64,000 nucleotides of DNA from Bacteroidales bacterium (GCA_045600045.1 JAZRXD010000021.1:9121-73120), one strand, 5' to 3'. Shown: positions 1-27,809, counted from the first letter of the stretch. The notes: a model not told the origin generated them from the letters alone. Program-made: numbers and translations.

Positions 1-384
1 GTAACGATACTTCATACGAAGATCGTCGCCGCCATCTGTATCATCTTGAATTGTGAATGGAGGAATTTCCGATGAATTCAAAATCGTAAGTTTATTCACG
101 ATAATTTCAACATCGCCAGTATCCATTTTTGGATTCTTGCTTGAACGTTCAACAACAGTTCCTTCTATTTGAATAACATATTCTCGTCCGAGTTTTTTTG
201 CTTCTTGACAAACTTCCGCATTTTGATTTTCGTCAAAAACCAACTGAGTGATACCATAACGGTCACGCAAGTCAACGAAAGTCATTCCACCCAATTCACG
301 GGTTTTTTGTACCCAACCAGCAAGGGTAACAGTTTTTGAAACATCGGAGATTCGTAATTCTCCGCACGTGTGTGTTCTGTACAT
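1..384 (-). CDS. aspS: aspartate--tRNA ligase, N-terminal 128 codons (rest lies beyond the window edge)
   Basis: Not in the ORF track because it runs off the edge. Reverse-strand translation from the ATG at 384-382 gives [44 protein letters not shown]..., the canonical AspRS N-terminal OB-fold. Confidence 0.9.
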
Positions 385-421
385 AATGTTAAGTTTAAAA
401 CCGCTTTTTGAAAAAGCATCA

Positions 422-429
422 CAAAGATA
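422..429 (-). promoter_or_regulatory. Bacteroidota -7 promoter box (TATCTTTG) for aspS
   Basis: Exact TAnnTTTG match on the minus strand, 38 nt upstream of the aspS ATG. Confidence 0.45.
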
Positions 430-822
430 TTAAAAGTTATCAGTTGTCAGTTGTCTACTTTCAGAAAATTGATAAATGAAAACGGTCAAGTGCCAATTAA
501 AAAACACGTTTAAACATAGAACTGTCGCGTTTCTAATTTCTAAAATCGGGTAAGCTTTTTTACGTGAAATTCGCATTCCAAATCTTTTTGTCGATATTTT
601 GTTAATAAACCCGAAAATTTTGAACAAAATTAACTCGTTATTGTTGAAAAATACATAATTTTACTTTTACTAATTTGAAAAAAATAGTGCGTAAGGCGTA
701 GAGAACGAGAATGTTACAAAAATCACCTAAAAAGAAAGATTTTGGAGTTTTTTGTAACAAAATTGTCTTAGTGTGTGTCTTACAATATTATAGTGAGGTA
801 TCAAACTAAAAGATTAGATATT

Positions 823-903
823 ATGAGGGAACATTTATCTTCTTTAGTGAAAAAACTGGCAGTTGTTGCTATTTTATTCGCTTGTTCTTTAAGAGTATTT
901 GCC
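823..903 (+). other. signal peptide of the giant adhesin
   Basis: Basic n-region (KK), hydrophobic LAVVAILFACSL, and VFA|D cleavage-type motif. Confidence 0.7.
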
Positions 904-3900
904 GATGGTTCGCGCGATATGTATCCAGCTGATTATTATACATTGCATGGAATAACAAAAACTGATATAACTAAATATCGTGCACCTATAGTAGCATATG
1001 AAAAGATTGATGCTATTAGTGGTTGTCCATTTCCTACAAATGCGACAATGAAGGTGTATGCCAAAGAAGGTGAGAAAATTTATGTGGCTTCGAGTTTGTT
1101 TTCTACTAAACATAATGCTAATTCTAAAATTACTTATAAAGCACCCGATGGGGTTACGAGTGGCACGTTTACAAGAAATGGCAACATTGGATTGATTGCC
1201 AATAGAAAAGCGGAACTTGCGGGCCCAAAATTGCCAAATGGACAGCCTTCAAATGGATATCAATCTTGTGTCATTACGGTTGGAGCAGGACAAACAGGTG
1301 TCTGGGAAATTGAGTTTAATGGAAATGCTAACTATAACTATGACGACACAAAAACAGCAACTGTTGATGATTGGGTCGATGGGTCATCTTGCCTTATGAA
1401 TGCGTTCGATATTTCGGTGCTAAATGAGACAGGAGATGCGTTTATCCCTGGTCGTGTTTACACAAATGTATTGAATATATATTTTACATCTGCTACGCAA
1501 AAAGGTTATGCCGAAGAATGGTATTCGGGTTTTTATGTGCTTACCAATACTGGGTATTTGTATTATGTTGATGCAAATGGACAAAATCCATGTTTGGGAA
1601 CTTTCTTTGCGAACAACAAGGGAATTCAAACAGGGTATGGAGACTTTATACAATCTTCAACATCCATAAAATATGCTAAAGGCGGAAAACCTTCGTACAA
1701 TAGTGTAGTATGGGATACAGGTTCGGGTTTAGCAAAAGCTGGAACAATTCCAATTTACGATCCTCGTGTGCCTGACAATGTTGTTAAAAAGACAGATGCC
1801 GATGGCAATTTGGTGGATTATTATGAAGATGTGACGCACAAATTATTTTTCACGAAACCTGCTGCCGATATGCCGGAATTTGCGCCTTGCGTGTACGATG
1901 ATCAAGTTGTAACTACGTGGTTGATATCAAAAGAAAACGCAAAGAATGCTCCTGTTTTGTCGAATTTGTGTATCGCAGGTAAAGAAAGCCATTTGGCCTG
2001 CGTGTTGGGTCCCGAAGGTGTTGAAATATATTTCGATGCCAATTGTGCAGGTGATTTTATGATTGAAATGGATTTTGGTGAGGATTATACTCCTAGAATA
2101 TTGGAAGGTACGTGTATTGAAGGTGCAAATACTATAGATTGGGACGGAAAAGATGGTGATGGAAATTTGGTTGAAAATGCCATGATATCTCTTGCCGGAA
2201 AATTGAAATCTGCCGAAATACATTTTCCCTTTGTTGATTTGGACAACAACAAACATGGTCTTGTCTTAAATCAATTGAATGCCAATTGGAACGAGGTTGC
2301 ACGAAATATTATTTATTGGAATGATTCAAATGTGCAAACATCTAAAACAACTGGCGATAGTGAAATAGCTAGTGGTGAAAGTGGTGTAACAAGTCCAAAT
2401 CATAATTTTTCATATACTTCCACATCAGATGTGTCTGGTAAAAAAACTTCTCGCGGTGATTATGCTATTATAGATACATGGACATTTGCACAGGGAGCCA
2501 CAGCAAGTTCGCAAAACGCTGTTGTTCGTTCTAACTTTATAGATTTAAAAGCAACAAGTATTACATGTAACAAAACAGAAGCTCGCATAGGCGAACTACT
2601 TACTTATACCTTGGAGGTTGAAAACGTACACCACGATATGATTGAGTTACAGAGCGAAGGTGTGATGGTATCTACCGAGGCTGATGCCGATAGTGCTTCG
2701 GTTGGTGTATGGTTCCCTGATGGTGGGTTCTACACTACAGAAGTTTCTCTTGTTTCTTCCGATGACCCTGACTGTATTGTTGTTCAACAACCTTCGGGTG
2801 AAGAATTCGGTTTGGGTTTCATCAATCTTAAAAATGGTAAAAAAGCAACTATTAAGGTGACTGGTTATGCCGGTGCAAAAATGGCTCACTCTTTGGTTGA
2901 GCCAGTTGGCTTTATTATGCGTCCTGGTGACTATTTCGAAATTGATGCTGCCAATCTTAATAATGATGGTATGCCATTAATTCCACAAAGAACACAAAGT
3001 GGCGATAAAGATGGTGAGTACGATACTTACGATAATAATAACCTTACAACCGCTAATCCAGTAATTTTCTTCTTGAACTCGAATCCAATTTGTTCCGACG
3101 ATAATGTTTCGGGTGAAGCAAAAGTTCAAATTACGGGAAATGTATTCGACAATGATAATGATCCTGATAATGATTTGGACAGCGATCCACAAGTGATTAG
3201 CGATATTCTTATTGTTGAAAAATTCGATGTCGAAGGTGTTGGAACAAATTATACTCCTGGTTCTTCGGTTACAATTTCCAATGTTGGTACAGTTCGATTG
3301 AACCAAGATGGTTCGTTCACATTCACTTCGGTTGGAGCGTTTGTTGGTCCAGTCCCTGCAGTAACATACTATGTAAGTGACCAATATACGGCTGCTGCAA
3401 CTCCAGTGGAATTCAGAGATAAGGAAATTGCTCCCGGACGCGATACTGCGACCATATATATAGGTATTGCATACAACTTCCCTCCTGAAGTTTCGCCATT
3501 AGCTGTTACAATCGAACACAAATCTGCAAAAACTGCGTTGCCATTAACGTTCTCCGATATTGAAAATAATACAATTATTATTTCAAGTCTCACGGGCGAC
3601 GATGCTGAAAATTTTGAATTCACAGGAACTACCGTATATTATAATGGTACGGTTACTCGTGAAGATGCAGTGTATAATATTACATTAACGTTAACCGATG
3701 ATGGTGACAATGCAAAAACTGCTACTTACGATATTGCAGTTACAGTAAAGAAAAATAACGCACCTACAGTTTCGTCTTCTCCAATCGATGTTACTGCTGT
3801 TTCTGCTCAGACATTAGTACCTTATGTTTTCCGTGATGCTGAAAATGATCCTATTACTGTTGCTGTAAGCGGAACAGATTCCGATAAATTTACAGTAATT

Positions 3901-6900
3901 GACAATAAGGTGTATTATATAGGAGCTTTGACTCATGGAAAAACTACATACAATATAACTTTAACATTGAATGATGGTTATGGTGAAGTAACTCGTGATA
4001 TGGTTGTAAATGTGTTCGATAACCAAGAACCTGTTATTTCTCCATCGGTTATTACTATTGCTAAAACAGGAGATGAAACTTTGGTTCCTTTCGTTATCGA
4101 AGATAAAGATGGAGATATTGTCTCAATTACAAATATATCGGGAACTGATGCATCGAATTTTAAAATAAAGACAAATAAGATTTTCTATATTGGAGACGAA
4201 AACTTGTCTCGTGATGATGCAAATAACAATATAACAGTTACGCTAAGTGATGGTCTTATTTCTGTAAGTTACGATGTTGTTGTTGTGTTAGGGAAAAATC
4301 AGGCTCCTATTTTAACAACAAAATATGTTGAAATCACCGGCGTTGCATCGGATGTGGAAGTCCCTTTGACATTTGAGGATAAGGAAAACGAAACAGTTTC
4401 TATAACTGCAATAAACGGAGATGATGTCGACAAATTCTCGCTAGTTGACGGTACAATTTTTTATATAGGCGGTGTGCTTGATGAGCCACAAGTATATACG
4501 TTATCTGTTGTATTTACCGACGGAATTGCTCTCGAAACAGACAATATCAATGTTTCGATTCTTGTAAACAAAGCTCCAAGTGTTTCGCCGACTGCAATAA
4601 CAATAAAACGTTCAGGTACAGAAACATTGGTCCCAATTTCATTCTCCGACCCTGAAGATGATGCGTTGACTATTTCGGTAAATGATGTCACTAATTTTAA
4701 AATAAAAGATGGAAGTCTATATTATATAGGTAGTAATAAAACCGAAGATACTCCTTTTAATATTTCATTAACACTGAATGATGGAATAAATACTACTGTA
4801 CAACCAGTTACGGTTACGGTTTTAGGAAACAATCTTCCTGAACTTTCGCCTTCCTCTGTTACAATAACAGTTAAAAGGACAACAAGCAGTACGTCTACAA
4901 ATAATAATGTGCCTGTAACAATTTCTGATCCAGATGGAGATGAAATAACAAGTGTTACAATTACGAGTGGTAATGATAAAAATTATTTTACGGTATCGGG
5001 AACTCAAATTATTTTTAAATCCAATAAAAATAATGCAAATACAACAACAACTAATGGAACAACATATAATTTGACTATAGCAATCGTTTCAAATGGGGAA
5101 ACAACAACATTGCCTTTGGCTGTAAAAGTTAATGTTGTAAGTTCTTTAACTACACCAACTCTTACTGTTACGGGTTCTACTCAAGAGTATGGAACAAAAA
5201 TAAGTGAATGCTATACATTTTCAGCAAAGACTAGTTCTTTTTCGTCAACAAATGTTCAAGGTACAGCCTCAATTGTAGGTTATTCAGATGATTATATTCC
5301 TTCTGTAGGAATGCATACATATACTGTATTGTTTACTCCAAATGATTTGACAACGTATGCAACAACAACTAAAACAGTTAACATTACAATCAATAAGAAA
5401 GCAATAACTGTAACATCTGCATCTGGTAGCAAAGAATATGACGGAACGGAGTTAAAAGCAGAAAGTGCATCAGTAACTACAGGTTCATTGGTTGGAGATG
5501 ATATATTGTATTATTCTGATTTTACAAGCATAACAAATGTAGGCTCTGCAGAAAACAATTTTACAATAACAGGGGACGATACGGACAATTACGAAATAAC
5601 CCAAGAAAAAGGTACTTTGTCTATCACAAAGAACACAACAGATGAAAAAATAGTAACTATTACTGGTAATAGTGGAACAAAAATATATAATGGTTCTTCC
5701 CAAAGTGTATCTGGTTTTACTCATGATGCATCTCCAGAATTTACTGTTGCATTAAAATCGGGGAAAAAAGCCGTTGCGACAGGCACGAACGCGGGGACTT
5801 ACAATATGGGTCTAAAAGCCGATATGTTCAATGTAAGTTCTACGAACTACTCAAATATAAAGATTACAGTTGTTGACGGAACGTTGACAATCGCACCAGA
5901 TGCCGTGACCGAGAAGGAAATCACCATCACGGGTAACAACGACGAGAAAACATACACAGGCAGTTCACAGTCAGTTACGGGCTTCACGCATGACGGCGAC
6001 GCAAACTTCACAGTATCGTTGAAGAGTGGCGAGAAAGCTGAAGCATCTGGAACGAACGCTGGCACATACCCAATGGGCTTGACTGCCGATATGTTTAATG
6101 TAAGCTCTACGAACTACTCAAATATAAAGATTACGGTTGTTGACGGAACGTTGACAATCACACCGGATGCCGTGACCGAGAAGGAAATCACCATCACAGG
6201 TAACAACGACGAGAAAACATACACAGGCAGTTCACAGTCAGTTACGGGCTTCACTCACGACGGCGATGCAAGCTTCACAGTGGCATTGAAGAGCGGAAAG
6301 TCGGCAGTTGCATCGGGAACAAATGCTGGTTCATACACAATGGGCTTGACAGCCGACATGTTCAATGTGTCATCGACGAACTACTCAAATATAAAGGTTA
6401 CGGTTGAGGACGGAACGTTGAAAATCGAACCGAAAAATATTTTAATAAAAGGAGGTTCTACGGTAGAGGATAAATACTACGATGGAACAACAGCAACAAC
6501 AACTACACTTGGATCAGTAGATGGAATAGTAGATGGTGATGATGTAACGATAACAGCAGTTGGTACATTGGTAGACGCAAATGCGGGTACTGACAAAACA
6601 GTAAACATTGTTTATACATTGTCTGGTGCAGATAAAGACAATTATGTGGAAATTCTCGGTGAAACAAAAAAAATAACAGTAAGCAAGGCTCCAATCACAG
6701 TAACAACACCGACAGTAAAAGATAAAGAATACGATGCGACGACAGCCGCAGAAATAGACGGAACCCTATCATTTACAGGTGTACAGAACAACGAAGGCAC
6801 AAGCGTAATAAACGTAACGGCCGTTGCCAAATTTGAGGACGTAAAAGTAGGTGACGACAAAGATGTAACAGTAACCTATACTCTTGAAGGAACAGGAAAA

Positions 6901-9900
6901 GACAACTATGTATTGTCAAGCACAACAGGAACAACCACAGCCGACATCACTGCAAAAGAAATCACCCCGTCAGCAACGGGAGTTGATAAGGAATACGATG
7001 GCACAACGACAGCAACGGTAACGAGCGTTTCAGGAAGGGGAATCCTTACTGGCGATGATGTAACAGTAACAGCAACTTCGGCAAACTTTGCTACTGCAAG
7101 CGTAGGAACAAACAAAACTATTACGGTAACCTATTCATTAAGCGGTGCGGATGCAAGTAACTATGTACTTGGCACTTCAACAGCAATCACAGCCGACATA
7201 ACTTCAGCACCAATCACGGTAACATCGGTAACAGCGTCAGACAAGGAATATGACGGTACTACAGATGCGACGATAGGCTCGGTAGTTTTCAGTGGAGTAC
7301 AAAACAGCGAAGGCTCGAGCGTAATCAACGTAACAGCAACAGCTTCGTTTGCCGATGCAAATGTAGGTAAAGACAAAACCGTCAATATAGCATCATACAC
7401 ATTGACAGGAACAGGGGCAAGCAACTATCAGTTAGCAACAGGAGCTCCAACGGCAACAGAAGCCGACATCACAGCAAAAGAAGTAACAATCACAGTTGAT
7501 GATAAAGAAAAGGTCTATGGAGCCACGAACCCAACATTCACAGGTTCTGTATCAGGTTTGATAAACAACAGCGATCTTGGCACAATCTCGTATTCACGTA
7601 TCAGCACAAATGAAAATGCAGGTACGTACACCAACGATTTGACAGCAAGCTACACGACCAACACGAATTACAACGTGTCGGTAACAAAAGGAACGTTCAC
7701 AATTAAACCGATAACAGACGAAATTACGGTAACCATAACAGGAAACAGTGATGAAAAAACATACAGTGGCAGTTCACAGTCGGTAACGGGCTTCACGCAC
7801 GACGGCGACGCAAGCTTCACAGTATCGTTGAAGGAAGGCAAGAAAGCGGAAGCATCCGGCACGAACGCCGGCACGTACGCAATGGGCTTGACAGCCGACA
7901 TGTTCAATGTGTCATCGACGAACTACTCAAATATAAAGGTTACGGTAGAAGACGGAACATTGACAATCACTCCTGATGCGGTAACCGAAAAGGAAATCAC
8001 AATCACGGGTAACAGCGACGAGAAAACATACACAGGCAGTCCTCAGTCGGTAACGGGCTTCACGCACGACGGCGACGCAAGCTTCACAGTATCGTTGAAG
8101 GAAGGCAAGAAAGCGGAAGCATCCGGCACGAACGCCGGCACGTACACAATGGGCTTAACATCGGATATGTTTAATGTAAGTTCGACGAACTACTCAAATA
8201 TAAAGGTTACGGTAGAAGACGGAACATTGACAATCACACCGAAAGAGGTTGATGACGAAGCATATACAGTGACATTAAGCAGCGGAGACAGCTATGAATA
8301 CAACGGTTTGGCACAAGTTCCGGCAGTAGTTGTGAAGGTCAACGGTGTTGAGGTTTCATCAACGGAATATCAGGTGGAATATTCAAACAATAAAAATGTC
8401 GGAGAAGCAACCATCACGGTTACCGATGCCGCAAACGGCAATTATGCTTTTGAAGAAAAGAGCGTAGTTTTCACAATCACTCCCGCAACAATTACGGTAA
8501 ATGGTTCAACAGCAAGCTCCAAAGAATATGATGGTTCAACTTCGGCAACAATAAGTGCTATTGATTTTGAAGGCGTTCAGAATGAAGAATCAACTTCAGT
8601 AATCAATGTTGTAGCAACAACGGCATCGTTCGACAATGCAAATGTAGGAACAGGAAAGACAGTAAGCGTGACATACGCATTGTCGGGAACAGGAGCTTCG
8701 AACTATGTCCTTGCAAATAATAACGGAACAACGACTGGTACAATAACACCAAAAGAGGTGATTTTGAGTTGGGGAACAACAACATTCACATACAATGGTT
8801 CTGTCAAGACAGTAACAGCAGTGGTAACGAACAAGGTAGGATCCGAAACGGTCAATGTGGCAACATACAGCGGCAATACCGAGACAGAAGCTGGAAAATA
8901 TATAGCGACAGCTTTAACATTGGATAACAGCAACTATAAATTGCCGTTAAATGCAACGCAATCATGGTCAATTGAAAAATCGGAAACTGAAAAAGAAATC
9001 ACCATCACAGGTAACAATGATATAAAAATATTCAATGGTAGCACGCAGTCAGTCGAAGGCTTTACGCATGACGGCGACGCAAGCTTCACGGTGGCGTTGA
9101 AGAGCGGAAAATCTGCAATTGCATCAGGCAAGAACGCTGGTTTATATACAATGGGCTTGACGGCAGATATGTTTGATGTAAGTTCAACGAATTATTCAAA
9201 CATAAAGGTTACGATTGTAGATGGTAAATTGACAATCAATTCTCAGACTATCGACGATGATGCTTACGCAATTTCAATCGATGGCGACGAAACATTTACA
9301 TACGATGGAACGTCAAAAGAGCCGAAGATTGTCGTAAAAGTTGGTGAAACAGAAGTTGATGTTGTTGAATACAAAGTTGAATATTTCAGTAATATCAACG
9401 CTGGTACGGCAACAGTGAAGGTTTCCGATGTAGCAAACGGCAACTACACTTTTGCAGACAAGAGTATCAATTTTACAATTGAAAAAGCTACAATTACTGT
9501 AAATGGCTCGATAGCAAGTTCTAAAGAATATGATGGTTTAACTTTGGCAACAATAAGCTCTATTGATTTTGAAGGTGTTCAGAATGAAGAATCGACTTCG
9601 GTAATCAATGTGATTGCAACAACTGCTGCATTTGAGGATGCGAATGCCGAAAATGACAAAACGGTTAATGTAACGTATGCATTGGAAGGAACTGGAATTC
9701 CGAATTATAAACTAGCTGCTACTTCTGGCACAACAATAGCCAATATTACTGCTAAAGAAGTTGAATTGTCTTGGAAACCAAGTCCGGCATTGTTCTCGTA
9801 CGATGGTACGGTTAAAACTGTTACTGCAACGGTTCAAAATCCAGTTGGGTCGGATGTCGTTACGGTAACGAAATATAACAACAATACAAAAACTGATGCT

Positions 9901-12900
9901 GGTGAATATGTTGCAGAGGCTATAGAATTAAGTAGCTCTAACTACAAATTACCTGCAAATGCAAAACAAACTTGGTCAATTGCTGAAGGTATCTTTACTG
10001 TTTCGTTGGATGACGATACATATACGTATGACGGTATTGCACACCATAATACAAAAACAGCAAGTTGTACGGCTATAGGAGGTACTACGGAATATCAATA
10101 TTCATTCGATAAAGAAACATGGGTTTCTGATTTGGCTGATCTTGAACAAACAAATGCAGGCACATATACAATCAATGTAAAAGCTTCGAATTCAAAATAT
10201 AAAACAGATGCAACTTGTACAGCAAGTTTGATTATCAATAAGGCAACAATTACGGTAGAAGAGGTTTTGGTGGCCGACAAATATTACGATGGAACAAAAA
10301 CAGCTGTTGTTTCTGATGTTACATTTTCAGGTAATGTTTCTGGGCAAGGTTCTGAAATAGTTACAGTTACGCCTTCTGCTTCATTTATTGATGCAAATGT
10401 TGGCACAGAAAAGACTGTAAATGTTGTATATACATTAGCTGGAACTGGTGCTTCGAACTATGTACTTGCAAGTGAATCGGGTTCAACAACAGCCGATATC
10501 AATGCTAAGAATGTTGTAATTACTGTAAATTCATCGTATAAAACTTACGGAGAATCAGATCCTACATTTACAGGTTCTGTTGATGGTTTGGTACAAGCCG
10601 GCGATCTTGGAACAATCAGTTATGTACGTACAAATAGTAGTGTAAGTGCTGCCGACAGTTACGAAAAAGTAATCAATGCTATTTTTGATGCAAATGCGAA
10701 CTATGATGTAAAGGTTGAAAAAGGTGATTTCACAATCAATCAAAAAGAAGTTGAGTTAGTTTGGAGTTCTACAATTGAGTTTGATTATGACGGTAGCAAA
10801 CATAGTGTTTCAGTTTCGGTTAAGGCGGAAAGTTTGGTTGGAACAGACGAATGTTCAGTGGAAGTTTATGATAATGAACAAACTGCAGTAGGTAATTATA
10901 CTGCAACTGCAATAGGCTTGAGTAATGAAAATTACAAATTACCATCTAGCGGAACACAATTATCTTGGGCAATTGTTTCTTCGGAAACTGCTCCGGTTAT
11001 TACTTGGAATATTGGTGAACTTGAAAGTTACAAATACGATGGTACAGAAAAAACTCCTGCTCCATCTTCTATCCAAGTAAATGATGTTGATTTGATAAAA
11101 GATGTTGATTATACAATTTCTTATGCCAATAATAAAAATGCAGGAACGGCAACTGTCACTATAAAAGCAAAAGGTGGTTATTCGTTCGACGATGTGACAA
11201 AAGAATTCGCAATTGCGAAACGTATAGTTACATTAACTTCCGATAACGGCGAAAAAACGTATGATGGAACAGCTTTAACAAATAGTACGGTGTTCGTTGG
11301 CGACGACAAATTTGTTGACGGCGAAGGTGCAACCTATTCTGTAACTGGAACTCAGACAAATGCTGGTTCAAGTCAAAATACATTTACTTATGAATTGAAA
11401 GAAGGAACATCGGCATTAAATTACGAAATCAGTTCGATTTATGGGGCTTTGAATGTACTTACCTACGACGAAAAATACACTATTACAGTTAATGGTAATA
11501 AGGCAACAGTTCCATTTACTGGCGAAGAACAAAGCATAAGTGGTTATACAATAAGTGATTACGATGCAACAATCACATTAAATGGACCAGAACAAACTTC
11601 TGTTAAGGCAACAGGTTCAGCTGTAGGTTCATACAATATGGGATTGAAAGTTGAAGATTTCACTGCAACTTCATCTAACTATACAAATATTGAAATCGTT
11701 GTAAAAGATGGTAAACTAACAATCAGCACAAAAGCTATTGTTGTAACTGCAACTATTGATGAGGATGAAATTATTTATGATGGTTCGGAACACAAACCAA
11801 CATATACTGTAGTTGATGGCAACGAACAAGTAATTTCTCCAGACGAATATATTGTTGAATATTCTGAAAATACGACTGATGCTGGTGAAGTGACAGTTAC
11901 AATCAGTCCAAAAGAAGGGTCATCTTTCGATTTCGAACCAATTGTTGAAACATTTACGATTGAGCAAAAAACAGTGACTTTGGAATGGAATTCTGATTCT
12001 CCATTTGAGTTTGATAATACAGAAAAATCGGTAAGTATTAAATCAGTTGCTGGTATTGTTTCTGGTGATGAATGTTCTATTGTTCTTTCAGGTGATAAGG
12101 GAACCGAAGTCAAAGAATACGAAGCTACGGCAAGTCTTAGCGGTAAAGATAAGGGCAATTATAAATTGGCAAGCGACAATAGCTCTTTGGCTTGGGAAAT
12201 AACAACTAAGGAACTTGAAAAAACGAATTTCACAATCAGTGGCGACGAAGTTGTTTACAATGGCGAATCACAAGATGTTTCGTTCACGTCCGATCCTGAG
12301 TTGATTGAGGGTACAGATTACGAAGTGTACTATAAAATTGATGGTGAATGGACAACAGAAGCTCCATCAAATGCTGGGGAATATGAAGTGAAAATTGAGA
12401 TTATCAATCCAAATTATTCTGATGAGGATATTGAAGGTTGGACATTGGTAATTCAACAAAAAGAAGTTTCTCTTGTTTGGAGCAAAACTACTTCATTTGA
12501 ATATGACGGAACTGCAAAATCTGTAACAGCAGAGCTTGAAGATGTATTGAGTGGCGATGATTGTAAAGTTGTGTTGAGTAACAATACCAATACCGCTGTT
12601 GGTGAATACATTGCCACTGCATCGCTTGATGGAGCAGATAAAAACAATTATATAATCAAAGGTTCTACAAGTTTGGCTTGGGAAATTCTTATATCAGGTG
12701 ATGAATATGTAATTACGGTAACAGGAAATTCTGCAACAAAAGTATATAATGGTTCAGAACAAAATGTAAGTGGTTATACAGTAAGTTCTTACGATGCTTC
12801 TATTACATTTAATGGTCCTGCACAAGATGATGCTGTTGCAAAAGGAACTACTACGGGTACATATTATATGGGATTGACAAAGAGTGATTTCTCAGCATCT

Positions 12901-15900
12901 TCGTCTATTTATTCTAATATTACAATAAAAGTTGTTGATGGTTCATTGACAATTTCACGTAAACCTCTTGATGTAATAACCGCAACAATCGAAGAAGGCG
13001 AGATTATTTATAACGGCGAAGAGCAAGAACCAAGCTATATACTGACAGACGGCGACGGAAATGTCCTCTCTCCAAGTGAATATGAAATTGTTTTCAATAA
13101 CAATGTCAATGTCGGTGAAGCAGATGTCATTATAAAACCGACAAAAAATTCTCAATATAATTTCAAAGAATTTGTGGAACATTTCACGATATCCCCTAAG
13201 GAGATAGCGTTGAAGTGGAGTGAAACCACCGAGTTCGAATACGACGGCTCCGAGAAGTCGGTAACCGTAGAGGCGAGCGGCATCATCTCCAGCGACAAGT
13301 GCACGACGAAGGTGACGGACGTGACGGGCGTGAACGCCGGCGACCATACGGCGACGGTAACATTGGACGGCGCAGACAAGGACAACTACAAGCTACCGTC
13401 AAACAGCACGCAGTCATGGACGATATCCAAGGCACCTCTATACACGATAGAAGTCCAAGGCAAGAGCGCGACGAAGATCTACACGGGCGCAGAGCAGAGC
13501 GTAAAGGGCTACACGTATAACCCATACGACGCAACGATAACAATCACGGAATCTCCATCCCAGGAAGAAATCTTTGCGAAGGGAACTTCGGTCGGCACGT
13601 ACCCAACCAACATGACAGAAGACATGTTCACTGCGACCTCTCCGAACTACGAAACAGTCAAGTTCGAGATAAAGAACGGCGCATTGACGATAAAGACGAA
13701 CCCAGTCGAAGTGACAGCGACGATTGCCGAAGACGTGATAACATACAACGGTTCGCCACAGGAACCTAAGTTCGTGGTTAAGGACAAAGACGACAACGAA
13801 ATCCCCGAATCAGCCTACGAAGTGACCTACTCGAACAACACGAGCACCGGCGAGGCAACGGCAACAATCCGTCCGAAGTCCGACTCACCGTACAACTTCG
13901 AGGAGATAACGGAATACTTCACGATATCGCCTAAGGAAATAGAGCTTGCATGGAGCGAAACCACCGAGTTCGAATACGACGGCATGGAGAAGAACGTAAC
14001 GGTAGAGGCGACCGGCATCGTTTCCGGCGACAAGTGCTACGTCAAGGTAGAAAATGCCAAAGCGACGGAGGTAGGCACCTATACTGCGACAGCTACCCTT
14101 GAAGGCTCCGACAAGGGCAATTATGTTTTGCCTGCGGTCCCATCCCAGCCGTGGTCAATCGAACCAAAGAAATTAACAGAGTCTAATTTCGAAATTTCGG
14201 GTGAAAATACCGTTTACGACGGCCAGCCACAAGAAGTCAGCTTCTCAAGCGAGCCGGAATTGGAAGAAGGCACGGATTACGAAGTATACTACAAAGTAGA
14301 TGGCGAATGGACCACCGAAGGTCCAACAAATGCCGGCGAATATGAAGTCAAGCTAGAAATAACCAATCCTAATTATGCATCCACCGACATAGAAGGCTGG
14401 ACTTTGACAATAGAGAAAGGCACCCAGGAAAAACCTGTGATAACCAGCACGCCAACAAGTTCGGAGGTAGCCGAGGACGGCAAGATGATAGGCCTTGCGA
14501 CCACGATGGAAATCAGGAAGGAAGGCGAAACGACGTACGTTCCTGTAACCGATGAGAACGAGGATTTTGCCAACGGAACGTACTATGTCCGTTACGCAGA
14601 AACGGACAATTTGTATGCTTCTGAAGACACGAAGGTTGTGATAACACCAAACGTAAAAGAAGACTTGACGACAGCCGACTTCGAATTCACGGCGCCATCG
14701 GATTTGACATATGACGGCACGGAAAAAGAAGCGACATTCACAACCGATAAAGAAGGTGTGGGTAACATAATGGTTTACTATTCAAATGAAGGTGGTTCAA
14801 CCTGGACGACCGAGAAACCTGTAGAAGCAGGCGACTACATTGTCAAGATAGAAGTTGAGGAAACTGAAAAATATAATGGTGTGACATTGACAGATCCAAG
14901 TTGGTATTTTACAATAGAAAAAGGCGAGCAATCTGCTCCTGTAGTAACCGGCAAACCAACATCAACTCCGGTTACACTTGATGGTAAGATCGACGGCTTG
15001 ACAACGGCAATGGAAATCCGCAAGGATGGCGAATCAGAATATATTAAATATACGAAAGTAACTAATCCAGACATGCTTCTTGAACCTGGAATATATTACG
15101 TCCGTTATGCGGAAACCGACAACTTATATGCTTCGGAAGAAACAGCAGTTGTTATTGAATCAGCGCCAAAACAAGATCCTGTAGTTGCCGACTTCGAATT
15201 CTCGGCTCCATCAGACTTGACTTATGACGCTACAGAGAAAGAAGCATCGGTATATACAGATGAAGAAAATATTGGCGACATCACAATCTACTATTCAAAT
15301 GACGGCGGCGAAACCTGGACGACCGATAAACCTGTTGAAGCTGGTGACTATATTGTCAAAATTGAAGTTGAAGAAAACGAATTTTATAATGGTATTTCAT
15401 TGGCTGACGATGATTGGAACTTTACAATTGAGAAGGGAGCCCAAGAAAAACCAGATGTTGCAGGTCAACCAACTTCAACTCCAACATCATCTGACGGTAA
15501 GATAGAAGGTTTAACAACAGCAATGGAAATCCGCAAGGAAGGCGAGACAACATATTCTCAGGTAACTGATCCTGATGCAGATTTCGAAGCAGGAACATAT
15601 TACGTACGTTATGTCGAAACAGACAACTTGAATGCTTCGGAAGACGTGTCAGTTGTAATTAATCAGGCTGAAAAACAAAATCGTTTGCCGGAAGAATACG
15701 AGGTTGTAATTCCTGCAGTAGAAGATTTGGTTTACGATGGCGAAACTAAAGAAGTAACTGTTGATGGCGACGGCGACATCGAAATTTGGTATTCGGGTGA
15801 TGGCGGTGAAACTTGGACAACCGACAAACCAGTTGATGCTGGTTATTACGAAGTGAAGATTGTTGTTTCAGAAGATGATAACTATAATTCTGCTGAATTG

Positions 15901-18525: not shown

Positions 18526-18533
18526 AAGTCAAA

Positions 18534-18567
18534 GGGAAGGTGGTCAAAAGATAACCTTCCTTTTTTA
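18534..18567 (+). terminator. rho-independent terminator after the adhesin gene
   Basis: The ggaaggt / accttcc stem is followed by TTTTTT. Confidence 0.6.
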
Positions 18568-18580
18568 GAATAAAAGATTT

Positions 18581-20248
18581 ATGAAAAAAGCGATTTTAAT
18601 TTTTAGTTTGTTTTTTGCTGTAATACAATCATTCTCTCAAGAGTATAAAGTATATAAGCATAATATTGATTTTAATTTTGGGGGCGGTTTGCATTCCGTT
18701 CAATTCGATCCAACCGAAGGGGGTGATCACAGAATGAGAATGGGTGGTACTTTCAATGCGCAATATCGTTATGCAATGGATGAAAATTGGAGTTTTGCCA
18801 TTGGTTTAGGTTTTACGACTTATTGCGGAAAGTCTAAATACGATTTATTGCAGGACAATATGTTATATACCGATCCCGAAAACGGCGAAGAATATCATTT
18901 TAAAGCGACTTTTACAGATTGGAATGAAATTCAACGTTCGTTTGATTTTGAAGTCCCAATCGCAGCATATTACCGTTATCCAATCAACCCAACGTGGAGC
19001 TTGGTTGGTGGCGCTGGTTTTAAATTGGATGTCCCTACAAGCAAAAAATTCAAAACTAAAAACGAAAGTTCCGGCGGAGAGTTAGTTCGTTCGGGTGAAT
19101 TCGAAAGTACCAATGTTGAATATAGCGATCTTCCTCAACATGGATTTTACGGTTCTGATGAGTATGAGGGCAAAGCAAAAATGAAAGGTGCTGGTATGTC
19201 GATGTTCGGTGAAGTTGGCGTTACTCGTCCTTTAAAAAACAATATGTCTTTGTACCTAGGAACGTATTTCAGTCATAGTTTGATAAATTCCTTGAAGGAG
19301 AGCGATAATCATTTGTACGATCCTGAAAACGAAAAATATTGCGGTGTCGTTTCTTCAGATTTGGTAAAGAAAACGCATTTGCTTGCTTTTGGTGTAAAAG
19401 CTGGTTTGAGTTTAGGATTCCCTCGCAATATTCTTCCTCCTATTGATACTGCCTTGTTGGCTGTAGAACGTTTGGCTGCTGAACAAGCCGAAGCAGAACG
19501 TCTTGCTGCCGAGAAAAAAGCAGAAGAGGAACGCTTGGCGGCAGAACAAGCAGAAGCAGAAAGATTGGCCGCCGAACAAGCAGAGGCAGAACGTCTTGCT
19601 GCCGAGAAGAAAGCTGAGGAGGAACGCTTAGCGGCAGAACAAGCAGAGTCAGATAGAATTGCTGCTGAAAAGAAAGCTGAAGAAGATAGATTGGCTGCCG
19701 AAAAAGCCGAAACAGAAAGAATCGCGGCTGAGAAGAAGGCCGAAGAGAAACGAATTGCTGCTGAAAAAGCTGAAGCAGAACGCCTTGCTGCCGAAAAGAA
19801 GGCCGAGGAAGAAAGAATCGCGGCAGAGAAGAAAGCCGAAGAAGAACGAATTGAGGCGGAAGCAGTTGCACAGGCCGAGGCTGCCGTTGAATGGATTAAT
19901 AAAAACCTTGTAGTAAACTTTGATCTTGGTAAGGCAAACATTCTGTCAAATGAAGAAATTGACGCGAAGATTCAATTTTTGATTGAGTTCTTGCAAAAAT
20001 ATCCTGAAAGAAAACTTCTTATAAAAGGTCATACGTGTGATTTAGGTAATCCTGCAACAAATGTTAAGTTGAGTAAACAACGTGCCGATGCAATGAAGAC
20101 AATTCTTGTTTTAAAAGGTTGTAATCCAAATAATATTGTGACAAAAGGTATGGGTTCCGCTGAACCTTTGGTTCCAAATACGAACGAAGAAAATCGTAAG
20201 AAGAATCGTCGTATCGAAATGCAGATTGAAAAAATCCTAAAGGAATAA
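18581..20248 (+). CDS. OmpA-family outer-membrane protein: N-terminal beta-barrel, central coiled coil, C-terminal OmpA peptidoglycan-binding domain
   Basis: Signal peptide [20 protein letters not shown]. The C-terminus, ...[28 protein letters not shown]...NRRIEMQI, is OmpA_C-like. Confidence 0.85.
19466..19866 (+). repeat. ~12 tandem 30/33-bp coding repeats ([10 protein letters not shown] / [11 protein letters not shown])
   Basis: Alternating 10- and 11-residue units give a 21-residue (3-heptad) periodicity. Both antisense ORFs here are repeat artefacts. Confidence 0.85.
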
Positions 20249-20302
20249 GATTCAGGATTTAAGAAACTTGAAAAAGTAGGAAAATAGTTTGTTGATTAGA
20301 AA

Positions 20303-20359: not shown

Positions 20360-21844
20360 TTACCATTTTGTGTTTCTCATATCGCCGGAATTCAAGAATT
20401 CCATGTGCATTGCAAATGCTTTGTCAAGCTTGTGCATTGTGTGCGATGGTTTTGTGGAAAGTTTCAAGTAATCCCACAACAATTCTTTATAATCTGGATG
20501 TGCAACTTTCTCAATGATTTCTTTTGCTTTGTCCATTGGCGATTTAGCACGAAGGTCGGCAACACCATATTCCGAAACAATCACTTTTAAATCGTGTTCA
20601 GAGTGGTCTTGGTGAGTTACCATTGGAACAATAGAACTTACCATTCCGCCTTTTGCTGTAGAAGGTGTCGTACAAATTGACAAATAAGCATTTCTTAAGA
20701 AATCGCCCGAACCGCCAATTCCGTTCATCATTTTGGTTCCGTAGAAATGGCTTGAGTTCATGTTACCGAAAATATCGCATTCAATAGCTGTGTTGATTGC
20801 GATTAATCCTATTCGACGAACAACTTCGGGGCTGTTTGAAATTTCTTGTGGACGAAGAACAATGTGTTGACGGAAGAAATCCAAATCTCCCATAACTTTG
20901 TCCATTGCTTCTTTGCTGCAAGTTAAGGAACTACCGCTGGCAAATTTAATTTGTCCTTCCTGCAACAATCCAATCACAGAATCTTGGATAACTTCGGTGT
21001 ACATTTCAAATGCTGGAATGTCTTTACTTTCGCCAATTCCGTGTAATACTGCGTTTGCAATATTTCCAACTCCCGATTGAATAGGAAGGAATGTGCTTGG
21101 AATTCTTCCAACTTTAATTTCGTTGGCAAGGAAATTGGCAACGTTTTCGCCAATCTTGATGGTTGTGTCGTCTAATTCCGTAAATCCTTTAATTTCATCG
21201 TCGAAGAACGTTTCAATTACACCAATGATTTTACTTGGGTCAACCTTTAGGACAGGATCTCCAATGCGGTCGCTTGGTTTGTAAACAGGAATTTCTTTTC
21301 TGTATGGTGGATCGTTTGGAATGTAGATGTCGTGAAGACCGCGCATTTCTTTTGGACGATTTGCGTTGTGTTCCAAGATGATTTTGTCGGCCAATTTTGC
21401 AAATGTTGGAACGTTACCAACAGCTGTTGTCAAAACAAGATTTCCTTGTTCGTCGTAATCGCAAACTTCAATAACTGCTACATCAACTTTTCCGAAATAT
21501 CCGTAACGGATGTCTTGTGCCAATTGCGACAAGTGGTAGTCGCAGTAGCGTATTTTTTGCTCGTTGATTGCTGCGCGTGAATCTTTGTTTGTTTGATACG
21601 GAGAACGAAGGTCCGTTGCATTGGCTCTTGCAAGAACTCCATCAAGCGATTCGCCTGTTGATGCTCCTGTAAACAAATTGATTTTAAATGGTTTTCCTGC
21701 AGCGTGTTCTGCTTCTGCTTTTTTTGCAATTGCAGTTCCAATTGCTTTAGGAACACCAACAGCGGTAAAACCACTTACACCGATACTAAACCCATTCTCG
21801 ATGTATGATGCTGCCTCGTCGGCAGTAATTACTGGAATACTCAT
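20360..21844 (-). CDS. acetyl-CoA hydrolase/transferase family protein (succinate/acetate CoA-transferase, Cat1/ScpC-like)
   Basis: MSIPVITADEAASYIENGFSIGVSGFT...FTGASTGESLDGVLARA...HLSQLAQDIRYGYFGKVDVAVIE, typical of this family in anaerobic Bacteroidales. Confidence 0.85.
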   Translation of the reverse strand: MSIPVITADEAASYIENGFSIGVSGFTAVGVPKAIGTAIAKKAEAEHAAGKPFKINLFTGASTGESLDGVLARANATDLRSPYQTNKDSRAAINEQKIRYCDYHLSQLAQDIRYGYFGKVDVAVIEVCDYDEQGNLVLTTAVGNVPTFAKLADKIILEHNANRPKEMRGLHDIYIPNDPPYRKEIPVYKPSDRIGDPVLKVDPSKIIGVIETFFDDEIKGFTELDDTTIKIGENVANFLANEIKVGRIPSTFLPIQSGVGNIANAVLHGIGESKDIPAFEMYTEVIQDSVIGLLQEGQIKFASGSSLTCSKEAMDKVMGDLDFFRQHIVLRPQEISNSPEVVRRIGLIAINTAIECDIFGNMNSSHFYGTKMMNGIGGSGDFLRNAYLSICTTPSTAKGGMVSSIVPMVTHQDHSEHDLKVIVSEYGVADLRAKSPMDKAKEIIEKVAHPDYKELLWDYLKLSTKPSHTMHKLDKAFAMHMEFLNSGDMRNTKW

Positions 21845-21874
21845 TTTAGATTACCATTTATTGTTTGTCGGCTG

Positions 21875-21882
21875 CAAAAATA
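21875..21882 (-). promoter_or_regulatory. -7 promoter box (TATTTTTG) for the CoA-transferase gene
   Basis: Exact TAnnTTTG match, 31 nt upstream of the ATG at 21844. Confidence 0.45.
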
Positions 21883-21919
21883 CAATTTTGTTGTAATATA
21901 GTAGACTCAAAATCTTGAA

Positions 21920-22651: not shown

Positions 22652-22652
22652 G

Positions 22653-23069
22653 CTAGTAAATAGAGATTTTTCGTTCCAATTTCGGAGTTAATTCAATCAT
22701 CAAATAGTTGATGGAGTCGGTTGTGGGAATATGCCCAACTTCAGTTGCTTCATCGCCAATATGTATCGTGATAGCTTTTGTTGAATCAAAGTGCCAGTTG
22801 TGTTCGAAAATAGTTTTGCCTGGAGGTAGTGGCGCTTCAAACAAAATCACATCGCCAACATTTATTTTGCATGATTGTGTGTCGGCTTGGTTTTCTATTT
22901 CGCAATGCAAAATATGCGTTTGTTTGGCTTTTTGCTTTTGTGCTTGGATAAAAAGATTTTGTGTGCCAAATATGGCTGTAACTAAAACACAGACAAATCC
23001 AATTGAAATAATAAAGAAATTTCTGTTTGTCCTTTTTTTATTACGATCACGGAATGATTGAGAATGCAT
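22653..23069 (-). CDS. hypothetical membrane-anchored protein (138 aa)
   Basis: Basic N-terminus followed by one TM helix (FFIISIGFVCVLVTAIFG). There are 1-nt gaps to both neighbouring genes. Confidence 0.6.
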   Translation of the reverse strand: MHSQSFRDRNKKRTNRNFFIISIGFVCVLVTAIFGTQNLFIQAQKQKAKQTHILHCEIENQADTQSCKINVGDVILFEAPLPPGKTIFEHNWHFDSTKAITIHIGDEATEVGHIPTTDSINYLMIELTPKLERKISIY

Positions 23070-23070
23070 G

Positions 23071-25675: not shown

Positions 25676-25723
25676 TGCTTAACTATTGATACAAAGAAAA
25701 CGATTTTTTGTGGATTTATTGCA

Positions 25724-25756: not shown

Positions 25757-25760
25757 TTCG

Positions 25761-26613: not shown

Positions 26614-26618
26614 CATCA

Positions 26619-27797: not shown

Positions 27798-27809
27798 CTA
27801 AAAATTTTT

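What the first reader, a model, noticed from the sequence alone, without database searches (positions are those of the whole stretch)
5620..9240. Second GC-elevated stretch carrying near-identical 267-bp tandem repeats next to an AT-rich copy of the same module
Seen: the 89-aa module (TITPDAVTEKEITITGNxDEKTYTGSSQSVTGFTHDGDASFTV...NYSNIKVTVEDGTL) occurs as 3 tandem copies (5620-6420), 2 more (7699-8229) and 1 more (~8970-9240). Copy 1 uses AT-rich codons, while adjacent copies are 50-60% GC (hand counts: 61/100 at 7781-7880 and 52/100 at 6961-7060). Copies at 7781 and 8048 share ~108 identical nt at an exact 267-nt offset. Inference: this is the same mosaic phenomenon as at 13.2 kb. In addition, long identical in-frame repeats are substrates for RecA-dependent or slippage expansion and contraction, so adhesin length should vary between cells or strains.
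Basis: partly seen in the sequence, partly recalled or inferred. Interest (0 to 1): 0.55.

Follow-up and report, generated by a model that had tools for sequence, protein, structure and literature searches.

The report
Codon-usage mosaic in giant adhesin repeats
Inside a 5,900-residue secreted surface-protein gene of a low-GC gut-type Bacteroidales bacterium, six copies of an 89-residue repeat show a purely synonymous rise in GC, most likely because the repeat cassettes came from a GC-richer genome and then recombined among themselves; this is an instructive but fairly ordinary case of a mosaic repeat adhesin.

Summary
The stretch lies inside one ORF (ATG 823 to stop 18525, 5,900 aa). The protein has a signal peptide, many YDG/MBG domains and a type IX secretion (T9SS) C-terminal sorting domain.

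"Near-identical" overstates it: module pairs are 86-88% identical in DNA (TRF arrays 88% and 92%), and the longest exact tract is 102 nt.

The GC excess is entirely at third codon positions. It is concentrated in the module arrays: GC3 is 0.55 at 5758-6432 and 0.66 at 7777-8154. Elsewhere in the gene GC3 is about 0.24, and in neighbouring genes it is 0.34±0.05. The 5' breakpoint falls inside module 1, which is a hybrid. Identity tracts among modules are clustered (permutation p≤0.002), which indicates past gene conversion.

No donor DNA was found. The closest module relatives (60-68% aa) are 89-aa tandem arrays in surface proteins on 57-59% GC Firmicutes-like contigs. An independent 1.5-kb metagenome fragment shares 83% nt identity with 7206-7706 and shows the same composition pattern.

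Best reading (~0.45): imported GC-rich cassettes were amplified, homogenised and partly ameliorated. GC-biased gene conversion, codon selection and assembly chimerism remain open. Length variation could not be tested for this gene.

The parts
823..18525 (+). Giant surface-protein gene (5,900 aa). It has an N-terminal signal-like peptide, a unique N-terminal region and cadherin-like repeats. These are followed by about 35 MBG/YDG-type beta domains, six ~170-aa C-terminal repeats and a T9SS C-terminal sorting domain.
   Evidence: ORF, translation, Pfam hits YDG/MBG_2/MBG_3/Por_Secre_tail. The exact sequence starting at ATG 823 is on record.
5617..5883 (+). Module M1, a hybrid. The 5' ~140 nt use AT-type codons. 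From ~5758 the codons are GC-type, and the last ~55 nt are almost identical to the end of M2.
   Evidence: Alignment A1, GC3 change-point at 5757/5758, exact runs 5839-5867 and 5869-5892 at offset 267.
5884..6417 (+). Modules M2 and M3, GC-type, with GC3 0.55-0.57 and 86% nt identity to each other.
5758..6432 (+). GC3-rich patch 1 (GC3 0.55, T3 0.20). It ends at the end of M3.
   Evidence: Segmentation.
6433..7776 (+). Spacer block of four YDG domains, one MBG_2 domain and the first 80 nt of M4. GC3 is at host level (0.33), but the block is A3-rich (0.45) and T3-poor (0.22). GTA makes up 76% of Val codons in the overlapping codon-usage segment 6475-7674.
   Evidence: L025 shares 83% nt identity with 7206-7706 and has the same style.
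7696..8226 (+). Modules M4 and M5, GC-type, with GC3 0.56-0.59 and 86% nt identity to each other.
7777..8154 (+). GC3-rich patch 2 (GC3 0.66, T3 0.07). It begins exactly where the 102-nt exact repeat begins.
7777..7878 (+). Longest exact repeat, 102 nt, with its partner at 8044-8145 (offset 267, in frame). Other exact pairs are 6338-6404 = 7880-7946 (67 nt, offset 1542), 5932-5987 = 6199-6254 (56 nt) and 7915-7970 = 8182-8237 (56 nt).
8965..9231 (+). Module M6, of intermediate composition (GC3 0.42-0.43), 70-76% nt identity to M2-M5.
13183..14721 (+). Second, stronger GC3-rich block (GC3 0.63, locally 0.8, T3 0.12). It is a multi-domain super-repeat unit. Its best relative anywhere is the AT-rich paralogous block at 11218-12609 (44% aa).
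18313..18522 (+). T9SS C-terminal sorting domain (Por_Secre_tail, 29 bits against a cutoff of 27).
18581..20248 (+). Downstream OmpA-like gene with an Ala/Glu/Lys coiled-coil-like repeat (19465-19853). It is part of the same two-gene indel.
390..20250 (.). About 19.9 kb (the giant gene plus the OmpA-like gene) that is absent between aspS and the CoA-transferase gene in a syntenic related species (L019).

Best explanation
The flagged stretch is the part of a giant T9SS-secreted MBG/YDG repeat protein that holds six copies of an 89-aa MBG-like beta domain. The protein is probably a cell-surface fibril or adhesin. On general T9SS knowledge, its C-terminus would be anchored to the cell and the conserved N-terminal domain would sit at the tip.

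The GC excess is a synonymous codon-usage mosaic. The most likely history (inferred, not shown) has four steps:
1. The module lineage evolved for a long time in a GC-richer genome. The nearest sampled relatives are 89-aa tandem arrays in SLH/Flg_new surface proteins on 57-59% GC Firmicutes-like contigs.
2. It entered this low-GC gene by recombination between homologous modules. This left a junction inside M1 at ~5758.
3. It was amplified in tandem and partly homogenised by unequal crossing-over and gene conversion.
4. It is now decaying slowly towards the AT-rich composition of the host.

The A3-rich spacer (6433-7776) and the 13.2-kb block would be separate imports with other codon styles.

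Because all exact repeats are in frame, the same recombination can add or remove 89, 514 or 603 residues. That would change stalk length without destroying the protein.
For: Shown:
- The shift is confined to third codon positions and appears within every amino-acid family.
- It is far outside the host range.
- The change-points are sharp, and one lies inside a module that is visibly hybrid.
- At least three codon styles coexist in one gene: T-rich, A-rich and C/G-rich.
- M-type modules are closer to Firmicutes-like modules (60-68% aa) than to the N-type modules of the same protein (36-48%).
- In those GC-rich hosts the modules match the composition of their gene (module GC3 0.73-0.91; gene GC3 0.78-0.82). 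This suggests the GC-rich lineage is the long-term home.
- 109 of the 174 proteins fetched by then carry the module, mostly as 89-aa-period arrays.
- Other assemblies show the same pattern. L025 shares 83% nt identity over 501 nt and the same A3-rich/T3-poor style. Its module has GC3 0.46-0.54 beside a nadE-like ORF with GC3 0.29.
- The orthologue in a 39% GC Paludibacteraceae MAG rises to GC3 0.68 as it enters its repeats.
- L009 shows the reciprocal case, an AT-rich 4.2-kb core inside a GC-rich gene.
- The whole gene is accessory, being absent at the syntenic site in L019.
- Singleton synonymous differences among M2-M5 run 13 GC-to-AT against 1 AT-to-GC.
- Identity tracts among modules are clustered, with p = 0.0002-0.002.
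Against: - No donor DNA or close protein was found. The best external match to the modules is 68% aa, and to the 13.2-kb block ~30-37%.
- GC-rich and AT-rich copies of this gene are each other's closest relatives on the protein tree.
- The GC-rich segments keep TTG, ATA, CCA and GTA and lack CTG/CTC. Every sampled GC-rich homologue does the opposite. The pattern looks like host usage with T replaced by C rather than like a foreign genome.
- The GC3-rich patches coincide with the tracts that show recent conversion, as biased gene conversion would also predict.
- The 13:1 polarisation result is weak. A control on AT-rich repeats showed that majority-rule polarisation partly mirrors composition. 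My hand-computed binomial tail, from the counts, is p ~0.02-0.05 after correction. The result does not separate amelioration from biased conversion.
- The source is probably a draft or MAG contig.
Confidence: 0.45

Rival explanations
1. In-situ GC-biased gene conversion. Frequent conversion among paralogous modules, with heteroduplex repair favouring G/C, has driven third positions of the exchanging copies towards G/C. Protein sequence and host tRNA-linked choices (TTG, ATA, CCA) stayed in place.
For: - The GC3-rich patches coincide with the modules that carry conversion tracts. Patch 2 starts at the first base of the 102-nt exact repeat.
- The codon flavour looks like host usage with T replaced by C and partly A by G. 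It does not look like any sampled GC-rich genome.
- GC-rich and AT-rich copies are closest relatives.
- W alleles are rare singletons among M2-M5.
Against: - The strongest GC3 block (13183-14721) has no partner of 30 nt or more anywhere in the gene. Its nearest paralogue is only 44% identical in aa.
- The A3-rich, T3-poor spacer involves T-to-A replacement, which a GC drive does not explain.
- L009 shows the opposite polarity, an AT-rich core in a GC-rich gene.
- The six C-terminal repeats are not GC3-enriched.
- From general knowledge, biased conversion of this strength has not been demonstrated in bacteria.
Confidence: 0.17
2. Assembly chimera. The contig, probably from a metagenome, joins reads of homologous repeat genes from organisms with different GC content, so the mosaic is not present in any one genome.
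For: - The window's proteins sit on a single unnamed 110-kb NCBI contig whose cluster mates are labelled MAG.
- Giant repeat genes are typical break and misjoin points. L003 and L019 both end at or near such repeats.
- All comparison cases are also metagenome assemblies.
Against: - Joins need long shared exact k-mers, yet AT-type and GC-type modules are only 64-68% identical in nt.
- The frame and super-repeat register are preserved across at least five composition boundaries.
- The GC-rich parts share host idiosyncrasies (TTG, CCA, ACG>ACC).
- An independent assembly (L025) reproduces 501 nt at 83% identity with the same style.
- The L005-L008 mosaic profile recurs at 99% identity in four assemblies.
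Confidence: 0.1
3. Local selection on synonymous sites. Avoidance of U-ending codons in these domains is selected, for example to tune translation or folding of the beta domains, or to lower DNA identity between repeats and so stabilise the array.
For: - The feature common to all anomalous segments is T3 depletion (0.07-0.22, against 0.44 in the rest of the gene) rather than GC gain. T is replaced by A in one block and by C in others.
- The same style is conserved between the window and L025.
Against: - Paralogous domains of the same fold in the same protein use T-ending codons freely (M1 5' half, N1, N2; GC3 0.09-0.28).
- The boundaries cut through a domain.
- Selection for repeat divergence would not be directional.
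Confidence: 0.08

Closest known systems
T9SS-secreted giant repeat surface proteins of Bacteroidota (type A C-terminal sorting domain cargo)
   Same: It has a Por_Secre_tail C-terminal domain above Pfam's threshold, an N-terminal signal-like peptide, porQ 6 kb away, and a long run of beta-domain repeats.
   Different: It is much longer than most (5,900 aa). It is a singleton at 90% identity. It has an internal codon-usage mosaic. Its function and surface attachment are untested.
MBG/YDG-domain proteins (Pfam PF17883, PF18676, PF18887, PF18657), including SLH/Flg_new/LPXTG surface proteins of Firmicutes
   Same: It has multiple YDG, MBG_2 and MBG_3 hits above threshold. The 89-aa module recurs as 89-aa-period tandem arrays of 3-12 copies in more than 100 such proteins, at 60-68% aa identity.
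   Different: The module itself scores just below the MBG gathering threshold (21.5 against 23.3 bits). Its confident model (pLDDT 96) has no PDB fold match. The anchoring system is T9SS rather than SLH or sortase.
Copy-number-variable tandem-domain adhesins (for example Rib/alpha C, SasG/Aap, Bap; from general knowledge)
   Same: The domain-length repeats are in frame, with exact tracts long enough for homologous recombination. There is statistical evidence of past conversion.
   Different: Repeat identity is 86-92%, not above 95%. Copy-number variation has not been observed for this gene.
Mosaic genes made by import of foreign segments followed by amelioration (general concept, Lawrence and Ochman; from general knowledge)
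   Same: Third-position composition is atypical, boundaries are sharp, segments differ in how far they depart from the host, and the whole gene is accessory.
   Different: No donor has been identified, and the codon flavour of the GC-rich parts is not that of any sampled GC-rich genome.
GC-biased gene conversion in multicopy families (shown in mammals, proposed for bacteria; from general knowledge)
   Same: GC3 enrichment coincides with converting paralogous repeats.
   Different: The richest block has no conversion partner in the gene. T-to-A replacement in the spacer is unexplained.

Membership tests
T9SS cargo protein (type A CTD) | C-terminal Por_Secre_tail / T9SS sorting domain | tested here: met
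   PF18962 at the last 70 residues, 29.0 bits against a cutoff of 27, E = 1.3e-6.
T9SS cargo protein (type A CTD) | N-terminal Sec signal peptide | tested here: inconclusive
   Read by eye only: MREHLSSLVKKLAVVAILFACSLRVFA/DG from ATG 823. No signal-peptide predictor was available.
T9SS cargo protein (type A CTD) | T9SS machinery encoded in the genome | tested here: met
   PorQ equivalog at 24602-25675 (-), 306 bits against a cutoff of 220. Other components lie outside the window.
MBG/YDG repeat proteins | YDG, MBG_2 and MBG_3 domains above Pfam gathering scores | tested here: met
   YDG 252 bits with 6 stretches in 5389-9600. MBG_2 50.7 bits. MBG_3 74.8 bits.
MBG/YDG repeat proteins | The 89-aa module itself is an MBG domain | tested here: inconclusive
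   PF17883 covers positions 2-86 of 97, but at 21.5 bits against a cutoff of 23.3. The model is all-beta with pLDDT 96 and has no PDB match at E < 0.5.
Horizontally imported segment (mosaic gene) | Composition atypical for the host at synonymous sites, with sharp boundaries | tested here: met
   GC3 0.55-0.66 against host 0.346±0.065 (maximum 0.551). Change-points at 5758, 6432, 7777 and 8154.
Horizontally imported segment (mosaic gene) | An identifiable donor lineage closer than the resident paralogues | tested here: not met
   The best external module identity is 68% aa. M1-M6 form one clade. No DNA match above ~72% was found to GC-rich loci.
Horizontally imported segment (mosaic gene) | Codon usage of the segment resembles a plausible donor genome | tested here: inconclusive
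   The 13.2-kb GC-rich block correlates at 0.59-0.66 with its best GC-rich homologues, and the module patches at up to 0.66. However, ATA is 33-57%, TTG 50-69% and CTG+CTC 6%, whereas all sampled GC-rich homologues have ATA ≤12% and CTG+CTC 42-86%.
Copy-number-variable tandem-repeat adhesin | Tandem in-frame repeats with identity tracts sufficient for homologous recombination | tested here: met
   Exact tracts of 102, 67 and 56 nt at offsets 267, 1542 and 1809. Clustered identity with p ≤ 0.002.
Copy-number-variable tandem-repeat adhesin | Observed copy-number differences between strains or cells | not testable with these tools
   The protein is a singleton at 90% identity. The syntenic relative L019 lacks the gene. 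Only homologues show variation.
Simple-sequence contingency locus (slipped-strand phase variation) | Short (1-9 nt) repeat units whose number shifts the reading frame | tested here: not met
   The units are 267 nt and in frame. TRF finds no short-unit array in 5600-9300 other than a 2-copy 21-nt match at 9340-9380.
GC-biased gene conversion among paralogues | GC3 enrichment restricted to sequences with conversion partners | tested here: not met
   This holds for M1(3')-M5. It fails for 13183-14721, which has the highest GC3 and no exact partner of 30 nt or more in the gene.

The most novel reading that the evidence does not exclude
The GC3-rich, T3-poor patches might not be foreign DNA at all. 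They could be the footprint of GC-biased gene conversion acting on intragenic repeats of a bacterial gene. That would make this gene, and the similar patches seen in its homologues, a natural test case for the long-disputed role of biased gene conversion in bacterial base composition.

A second reading is somewhat more likely but less novel. MBG-module cassettes may be exchanged across phyla between Firmicutes SLH/sortase-anchored proteins and Bacteroidota T9SS proteins in gut communities, with codon usage recording each import.
Probability: 0.15. Interest if true: 0.7.

Novelty: new member of a known kind. Interest (0 to 1): 0.35.

Why it matters
If the cassette-import reading is right, giant repeat adhesins of gut anaerobes are built by swapping domain cassettes between distant taxa. 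Codon usage then gives a cheap way to date and trace those swaps. If the biased-conversion reading is right, the gene offers rare direct evidence for a debated force on bacterial GC content.

There are also two practical points for annotation and assembly. The stated copy number of such repeats in draft assemblies should be treated as provisional. GC-based "foreign DNA" calls inside repeat genes need third-position and paralogue checks.

Tried and rejected
1. Donor search. Protein searches with the whole stretch, with M4-M5 and with the 13.2-kb block found nothing above 68%, 65% and 37% aa identity respectively. The genome scan gave only two distant orthologues of the N-terminal domain, at 50% and 38%. 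The metagenome scan gave at most 55%. blastn of the gene against all fetched loci gave no match to GC-rich loci above ~72% over more than 150 nt. The viral scan found no relative.

2. Amino-acid composition as a donor signal. The K/R ratio and GARP/FYMINK were rejected as tests, because the module is Arg-free and Lys-rich even in 57-59% GC hosts.

3. Polarised synonymous changes as proof of amelioration. This was downgraded after a control on AT-rich repeats gave the mirror-image bias.

4. Strain comparison through neighbouring genes. Four look-ups of CoA-transferase cluster members gave one syntenic contig (L019), which lacks the gene, and several non-syntenic ones.

5. Exact look-up of the giant protein. 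It is a singleton cluster.

6. Invertible promoter or mobile-element marks. Only short, imperfect inverted repeats were found in the upstream region that was scanned (380-830). The downstream border of the island and the search for an integrase or tRNA gene there were not examined with a tool.

7. Overlapping ORFs as a constraint on third positions. No ORF of 100 aa or more lies in other frames of 5600-9300.

8. Fold assignment. The model is confident, but there is no PDB match.

9. Literature. Three full-text searches found nothing on bacterial MBG/YDG repeats or on intragenic GC3 mosaics in repeat adhesins.

Full report
**What is at the coordinates**

The finding lies wholly inside one very long ORF (775..18525 by the ORF listing). 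The start recorded for this gene in the protein collection is ATG 823, giving 5,900 residues. That exact sequence is on record as a singleton cluster.

The product begins with a signal-like peptide. Next come a ~700-residue region without Pfam matches and weak cadherin-like repeats. These are followed by dozens of YDG, MBG_2 and MBG_3 domains. The protein ends in a Por_Secre_tail T9SS sorting domain above Pfam's threshold.

Neighbouring genes are chromosomal Bacteroidales genes: porQ, ispH, glnS, nrdD and a CoA transferase. The window is 38% GC, and 26 neighbouring ORFs have GC3 of 0.34±0.05. The window's proteins sit on one unnamed 110,298-bp NCBI contig. Their cluster mates are labelled "MAG... 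Bacteroidales bacterium". The nearest orthologue of the N-terminal domain is in a Paludibacteraceae MAG, at 50% aa identity. The source is therefore probably a draft or metagenome-assembled genome of that group.

**Check of the observation**

TRF finds period-267 arrays at 5817-6426 (88% matches) and 7744-8237 (92%). The two hand counts are exact.

- The copies are similar rather than near-identical. GC-type pairs are 78-88% identical in nt, and M1 is only 64-68% identical to the rest.
- The longest exact tract is 102 nt (7777-7878 = 8044-8145). Further tracts of 67 and 56 nt lie at offsets 267, 1542 and 1809, all multiples of three.

**Nature of the GC excess**

Sliding windows by codon position show that GC1 and GC2 do not change. 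GC3 rises from 0.12-0.30 to 0.5-0.62 in this region and to 0.6-0.79 at 13.1-14.7 kb. Per-amino-acid tables show the shift in every codon family, so it is synonymous.

Change-point analysis gives five blocks:

| Block | GC3 |
|---|---|
| 775-5757 | 0.24 |
| 5758-9468 | 0.42 |
| 9469-13182 | 0.22 |
| 13183-14721 | 0.63 |
| 14722-18522 | 0.27 |

At finer scale the flagged stretch resolves into four parts:

| Block | GC3 | Content |
|---|---|---|
| 5758-6432 | 0.55 | 3' part of M1, M2, M3 |
| 6433-7776 | 0.33 | four YDG domains and one MBG_2; A3 0.45, T3 0.22 |
| 7777-8154 | 0.66 | core of M4-M5; T3 0.07 |
| 8155-10074 | 0.33 | mixed tail |

The GC3-rich patches are therefore the module arrays themselves. 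They are extreme for this genome. Host 89-codon windows reach a maximum of 0.551 (n = 861), and 51 windows of this gene exceed that. The contrast with the AT-type parts of the gene gives chi-square 193, p = 8e-44.

The feature common to all anomalous blocks is depletion of T-ending codons. T is replaced mainly by C (and A partly by G) in the module arrays and the 13.2-kb block. In the spacer it is replaced by A, where GTA makes up 76% of Val codons.

**Junctions and recombination**

The alignment of the six modules shows that M1 is a hybrid. Its first ~140 nt use T-ending codons. From about 5758 it is GC-type, and its last ~55 nt are almost identical to the end of M2.

A permutation test on runs of concordant polymorphic sites finds significantly clustered identity for four pairs:

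| Pair | p |
|---|---|
| M2/M3 | 0.0002 |
| M3/M4 | 0.0006 |
| M4/M5 | 0.0002 |
| M1/M2 | 0.002 |

Different pairs share different tracts. This is the signature of gene conversion or unequal crossing-over among modules. Every possible exchange between exact tracts would stay in frame, changing the protein by 89, 514 or 603 residues.

**Search for relatives**

No close relative of the GC-rich DNA exists in the collections I could search.
- Protein searches found at most 68% identity for modules and about 30-37% for the 13.2-kb block.
- The genome and metagenome scans gave only distant loci.
- blastn of the gene found no strong DNA match to GC-rich loci.

The best relative of the 13.2-kb block is its own AT-rich paralogue at 11218-12609 (44% aa, offset 1980 nt).

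The closest relatives of the 89-aa module are informative. They are tandem arrays with the same 89-aa period in surface proteins that carry Flg_new, SLH or VWA domains. These sit on contigs of 57-59% GC with Firmicutes-like neighbours. Module GC3 there is 0.73-0.91, matching the gene around it.

On a protein tree M1-M6 form one clade that is sister to those modules. The other modules of similar type in the same protein (N1-N3) are more distant.

**Is the pattern peculiar to this contig?**

No. Four other cases show related patterns.
- P0124/L025 is a 1,468-nt contig from another assembly with 40% GC. It shares 83% nt identity over 501 nt with 7206-7706 and has the same A3-rich, T3-poor style. 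Its M-type module has GC3 0.46-0.54, next to a nadE-like ORF with GC3 0.29.
- The orthologue in the 39% GC Paludibacteraceae MAG has GC3 0.12-0.38 for 4.8 kb. It then rises to 0.68 as it enters deeper repeats, just before the contig ends.
- L009 is an LPXTG/Flg_new-type gene on a 58% GC contig. It shows the reverse: a 4.2-kb core with GC3 0.2-0.38 between flanks at 0.6-0.74. Of the two M-type modules inside that core, the second is locally richer (GC3 0.51, against 0.27 for the first).
- A T9SS homologue recovered at ~99% identity from four assemblies has the same GC3 step in each. It differs between assemblies by in-frame indels (+438 nt; net -45 nt) in the repeat zone.

All of these are short-read metagenome assemblies, so they are supportive rather than conclusive.

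**Context of the whole gene**

A contig from a related species (L019) is syntenic with window 20361-33852, at 76-85% nt identity. After the CoA-transferase gene and a 173-nt spacer it runs directly into aspS, which is window 2-385 on the minus strand at 92% nt identity. The giant gene and the OmpA-like gene downstream of it are therefore a ~19.9-kb two-gene indel. The L003 orthologue sits in a different neighbourhood. The gene is accessory, which makes exchange of its parts more plausible.

**Interpretation**

The best-supported account is that the module cassettes spent a long time in a GC-richer lineage. They were then recombined into this low-GC gene at homologous modules, amplified, partly homogenised, and are now decaying towards AT.

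Direction is inferred as follows. The modules are at compositional equilibrium with their genes in the GC-rich Firmicutes-like hosts. They are far from equilibrium here.

Singleton synonymous differences among M2-M5 are 13 GC-to-AT against 1 AT-to-GC. A control on AT-rich repeats gave the opposite bias. Majority-rule polarisation therefore partly mirrors composition. From the counts I computed a corrected binomial tail of only about 0.02-0.05 by hand. The result fits amelioration and biased conversion equally well.

**Why confidence is only moderate**

- No donor was found.
- GC-rich and AT-rich copies of this gene are each other's closest relatives.
- The codon usage of the GC-rich parts is odd. 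ATA is 33-57% of Ile codons, TTG is 50-69% of Leu codons, CCA is common, and CTG+CTC is about 6%. Every sampled GC-rich homologue has ATA ≤12% and CTG+CTC 42-86%. This looks like host usage with T-ending codons replaced. It would fit a related mid-GC donor, an in-situ drive or selection.
- The GC3-rich patches coincide with the conversion tracts, as GC-biased gene conversion predicts.
- Against biased conversion, the richest block has no conversion partner in the gene. The spacer shows T-to-A replacement. L009 has the opposite polarity.
- A chimeric assembly is unlikely but cannot be excluded without reads.

**Function**

The AlphaFold model of M5 is confident (pLDDT 96, seven strands). It has no significant fold match in the PDB. 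The module scores just under the MBG threshold.

From general knowledge of T9SS cargo, the C-terminal domain directs export and surface attachment. On that basis the repeats would form a stalk that presents the N-terminal domain. Module number would then set the reach of the protein. This is inference and nothing here tests it.

**Verdict**

The "mosaic" interpretation is reasonable but unproven. The prediction of length variation is plausible but untested for this gene. The case is a new member of a known kind: a mosaic, repeat-rich surface protein. A minority reading, biased conversion, would be more interesting if true.

Noticed in passing
window 390-20250; L019 9998-12087: The giant gene and the downstream OmpA-like gene form a ~19.9-kb indel. 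In a syntenic related species the CoA-transferase gene is followed, after 173 nt, directly by aspS. aspS corresponds to window 2-385 on the minus strand, at 92% nt identity. Only the upstream region 380-830 was scanned for repeats, and it held only short, imperfect inverted repeats. An integrase or tRNA gene at the borders was not searched for.
   Followed up: partly
window 18581-20248, repeats at 19465-19853: This is an OmpA-family protein with an Ala/Glu/Lys-rich repeat (periods 30-33, 63 and 93 nt). The repeat raises local GC to ~0.5 through amino-acid composition, not codon choice. It may be an anchoring partner of the giant protein.
   Followed up: no
window 13183-14721 vs 11218-12609: There is a 1,980-nt super-repeat. 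The GC3-rich block is the second copy of a multi-domain unit whose first copy is AT-rich. The two are 44% identical in aa overall, with more conserved patches such as 14173-14415 against 12214-12456. No external protein comes closer than ~37%.
   Followed up: partly
window 14404-17424: Six tandem ~166-171-aa repeats (FTIEKG...GTYYVRYAET...GGETWTT) show GC3 declining from 0.49 in the first copy to 0.23 in the last three.
   Followed up: partly
L009 1211-7753: This is the reciprocal mosaic. An LPXTG/Flg_new-type gene on a 58% GC contig has a sharply bounded AT-rich core (2711-6910, GC3 0.2-0.38). Of the two M-type modules inside it, the second is locally GC3-richer (0.51, against 0.27 for the first).
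   Followed up: partly
L005 4268-15148, L006 96-11414, L008 4049-14884, L007 4268-11164: The same T9SS repeat gene was recovered at ~99% nt identity from four assemblies. The copies differ by in-frame indels in the repeat zone (+438 nt; net -45 nt). One copy ends early at 2,299 aa. This could be real copy-number variation or repeat collapse during assembly.
   Followed up: partly
L025 195-1076: This fragment is 83% identical in nt to window 7206-7706. Its ORF stops abruptly just after the start of a further module (…FTINKDDTELTLLIKR*) and is followed by a nadE-like ORF. It may be a truncated gene, a pseudogene or a misjoin.
   Followed up: no
window 7960-8226 (module M5): The AlphaFold model is very confident (pLDDT 96.4, pTM 0.82, seven strands and one short helix). 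Foldseek finds no PDB match with E < 0.5, so this module type appears to lack a solved structure.
   Followed up: partly
window 4800-15700 (repeat region of the giant protein): Arginine is almost absent and lysine is used instead (K/(K+R) 0.91-1.00). The same holds for the homologous modules in 57-59% GC hosts, so it is a family property rather than a composition effect.
   Followed up: yes
window 42048-43763: This ORF has the highest GC3 (0.46) among the 26 neighbouring ORFs. It was not identified.
   Followed up: no
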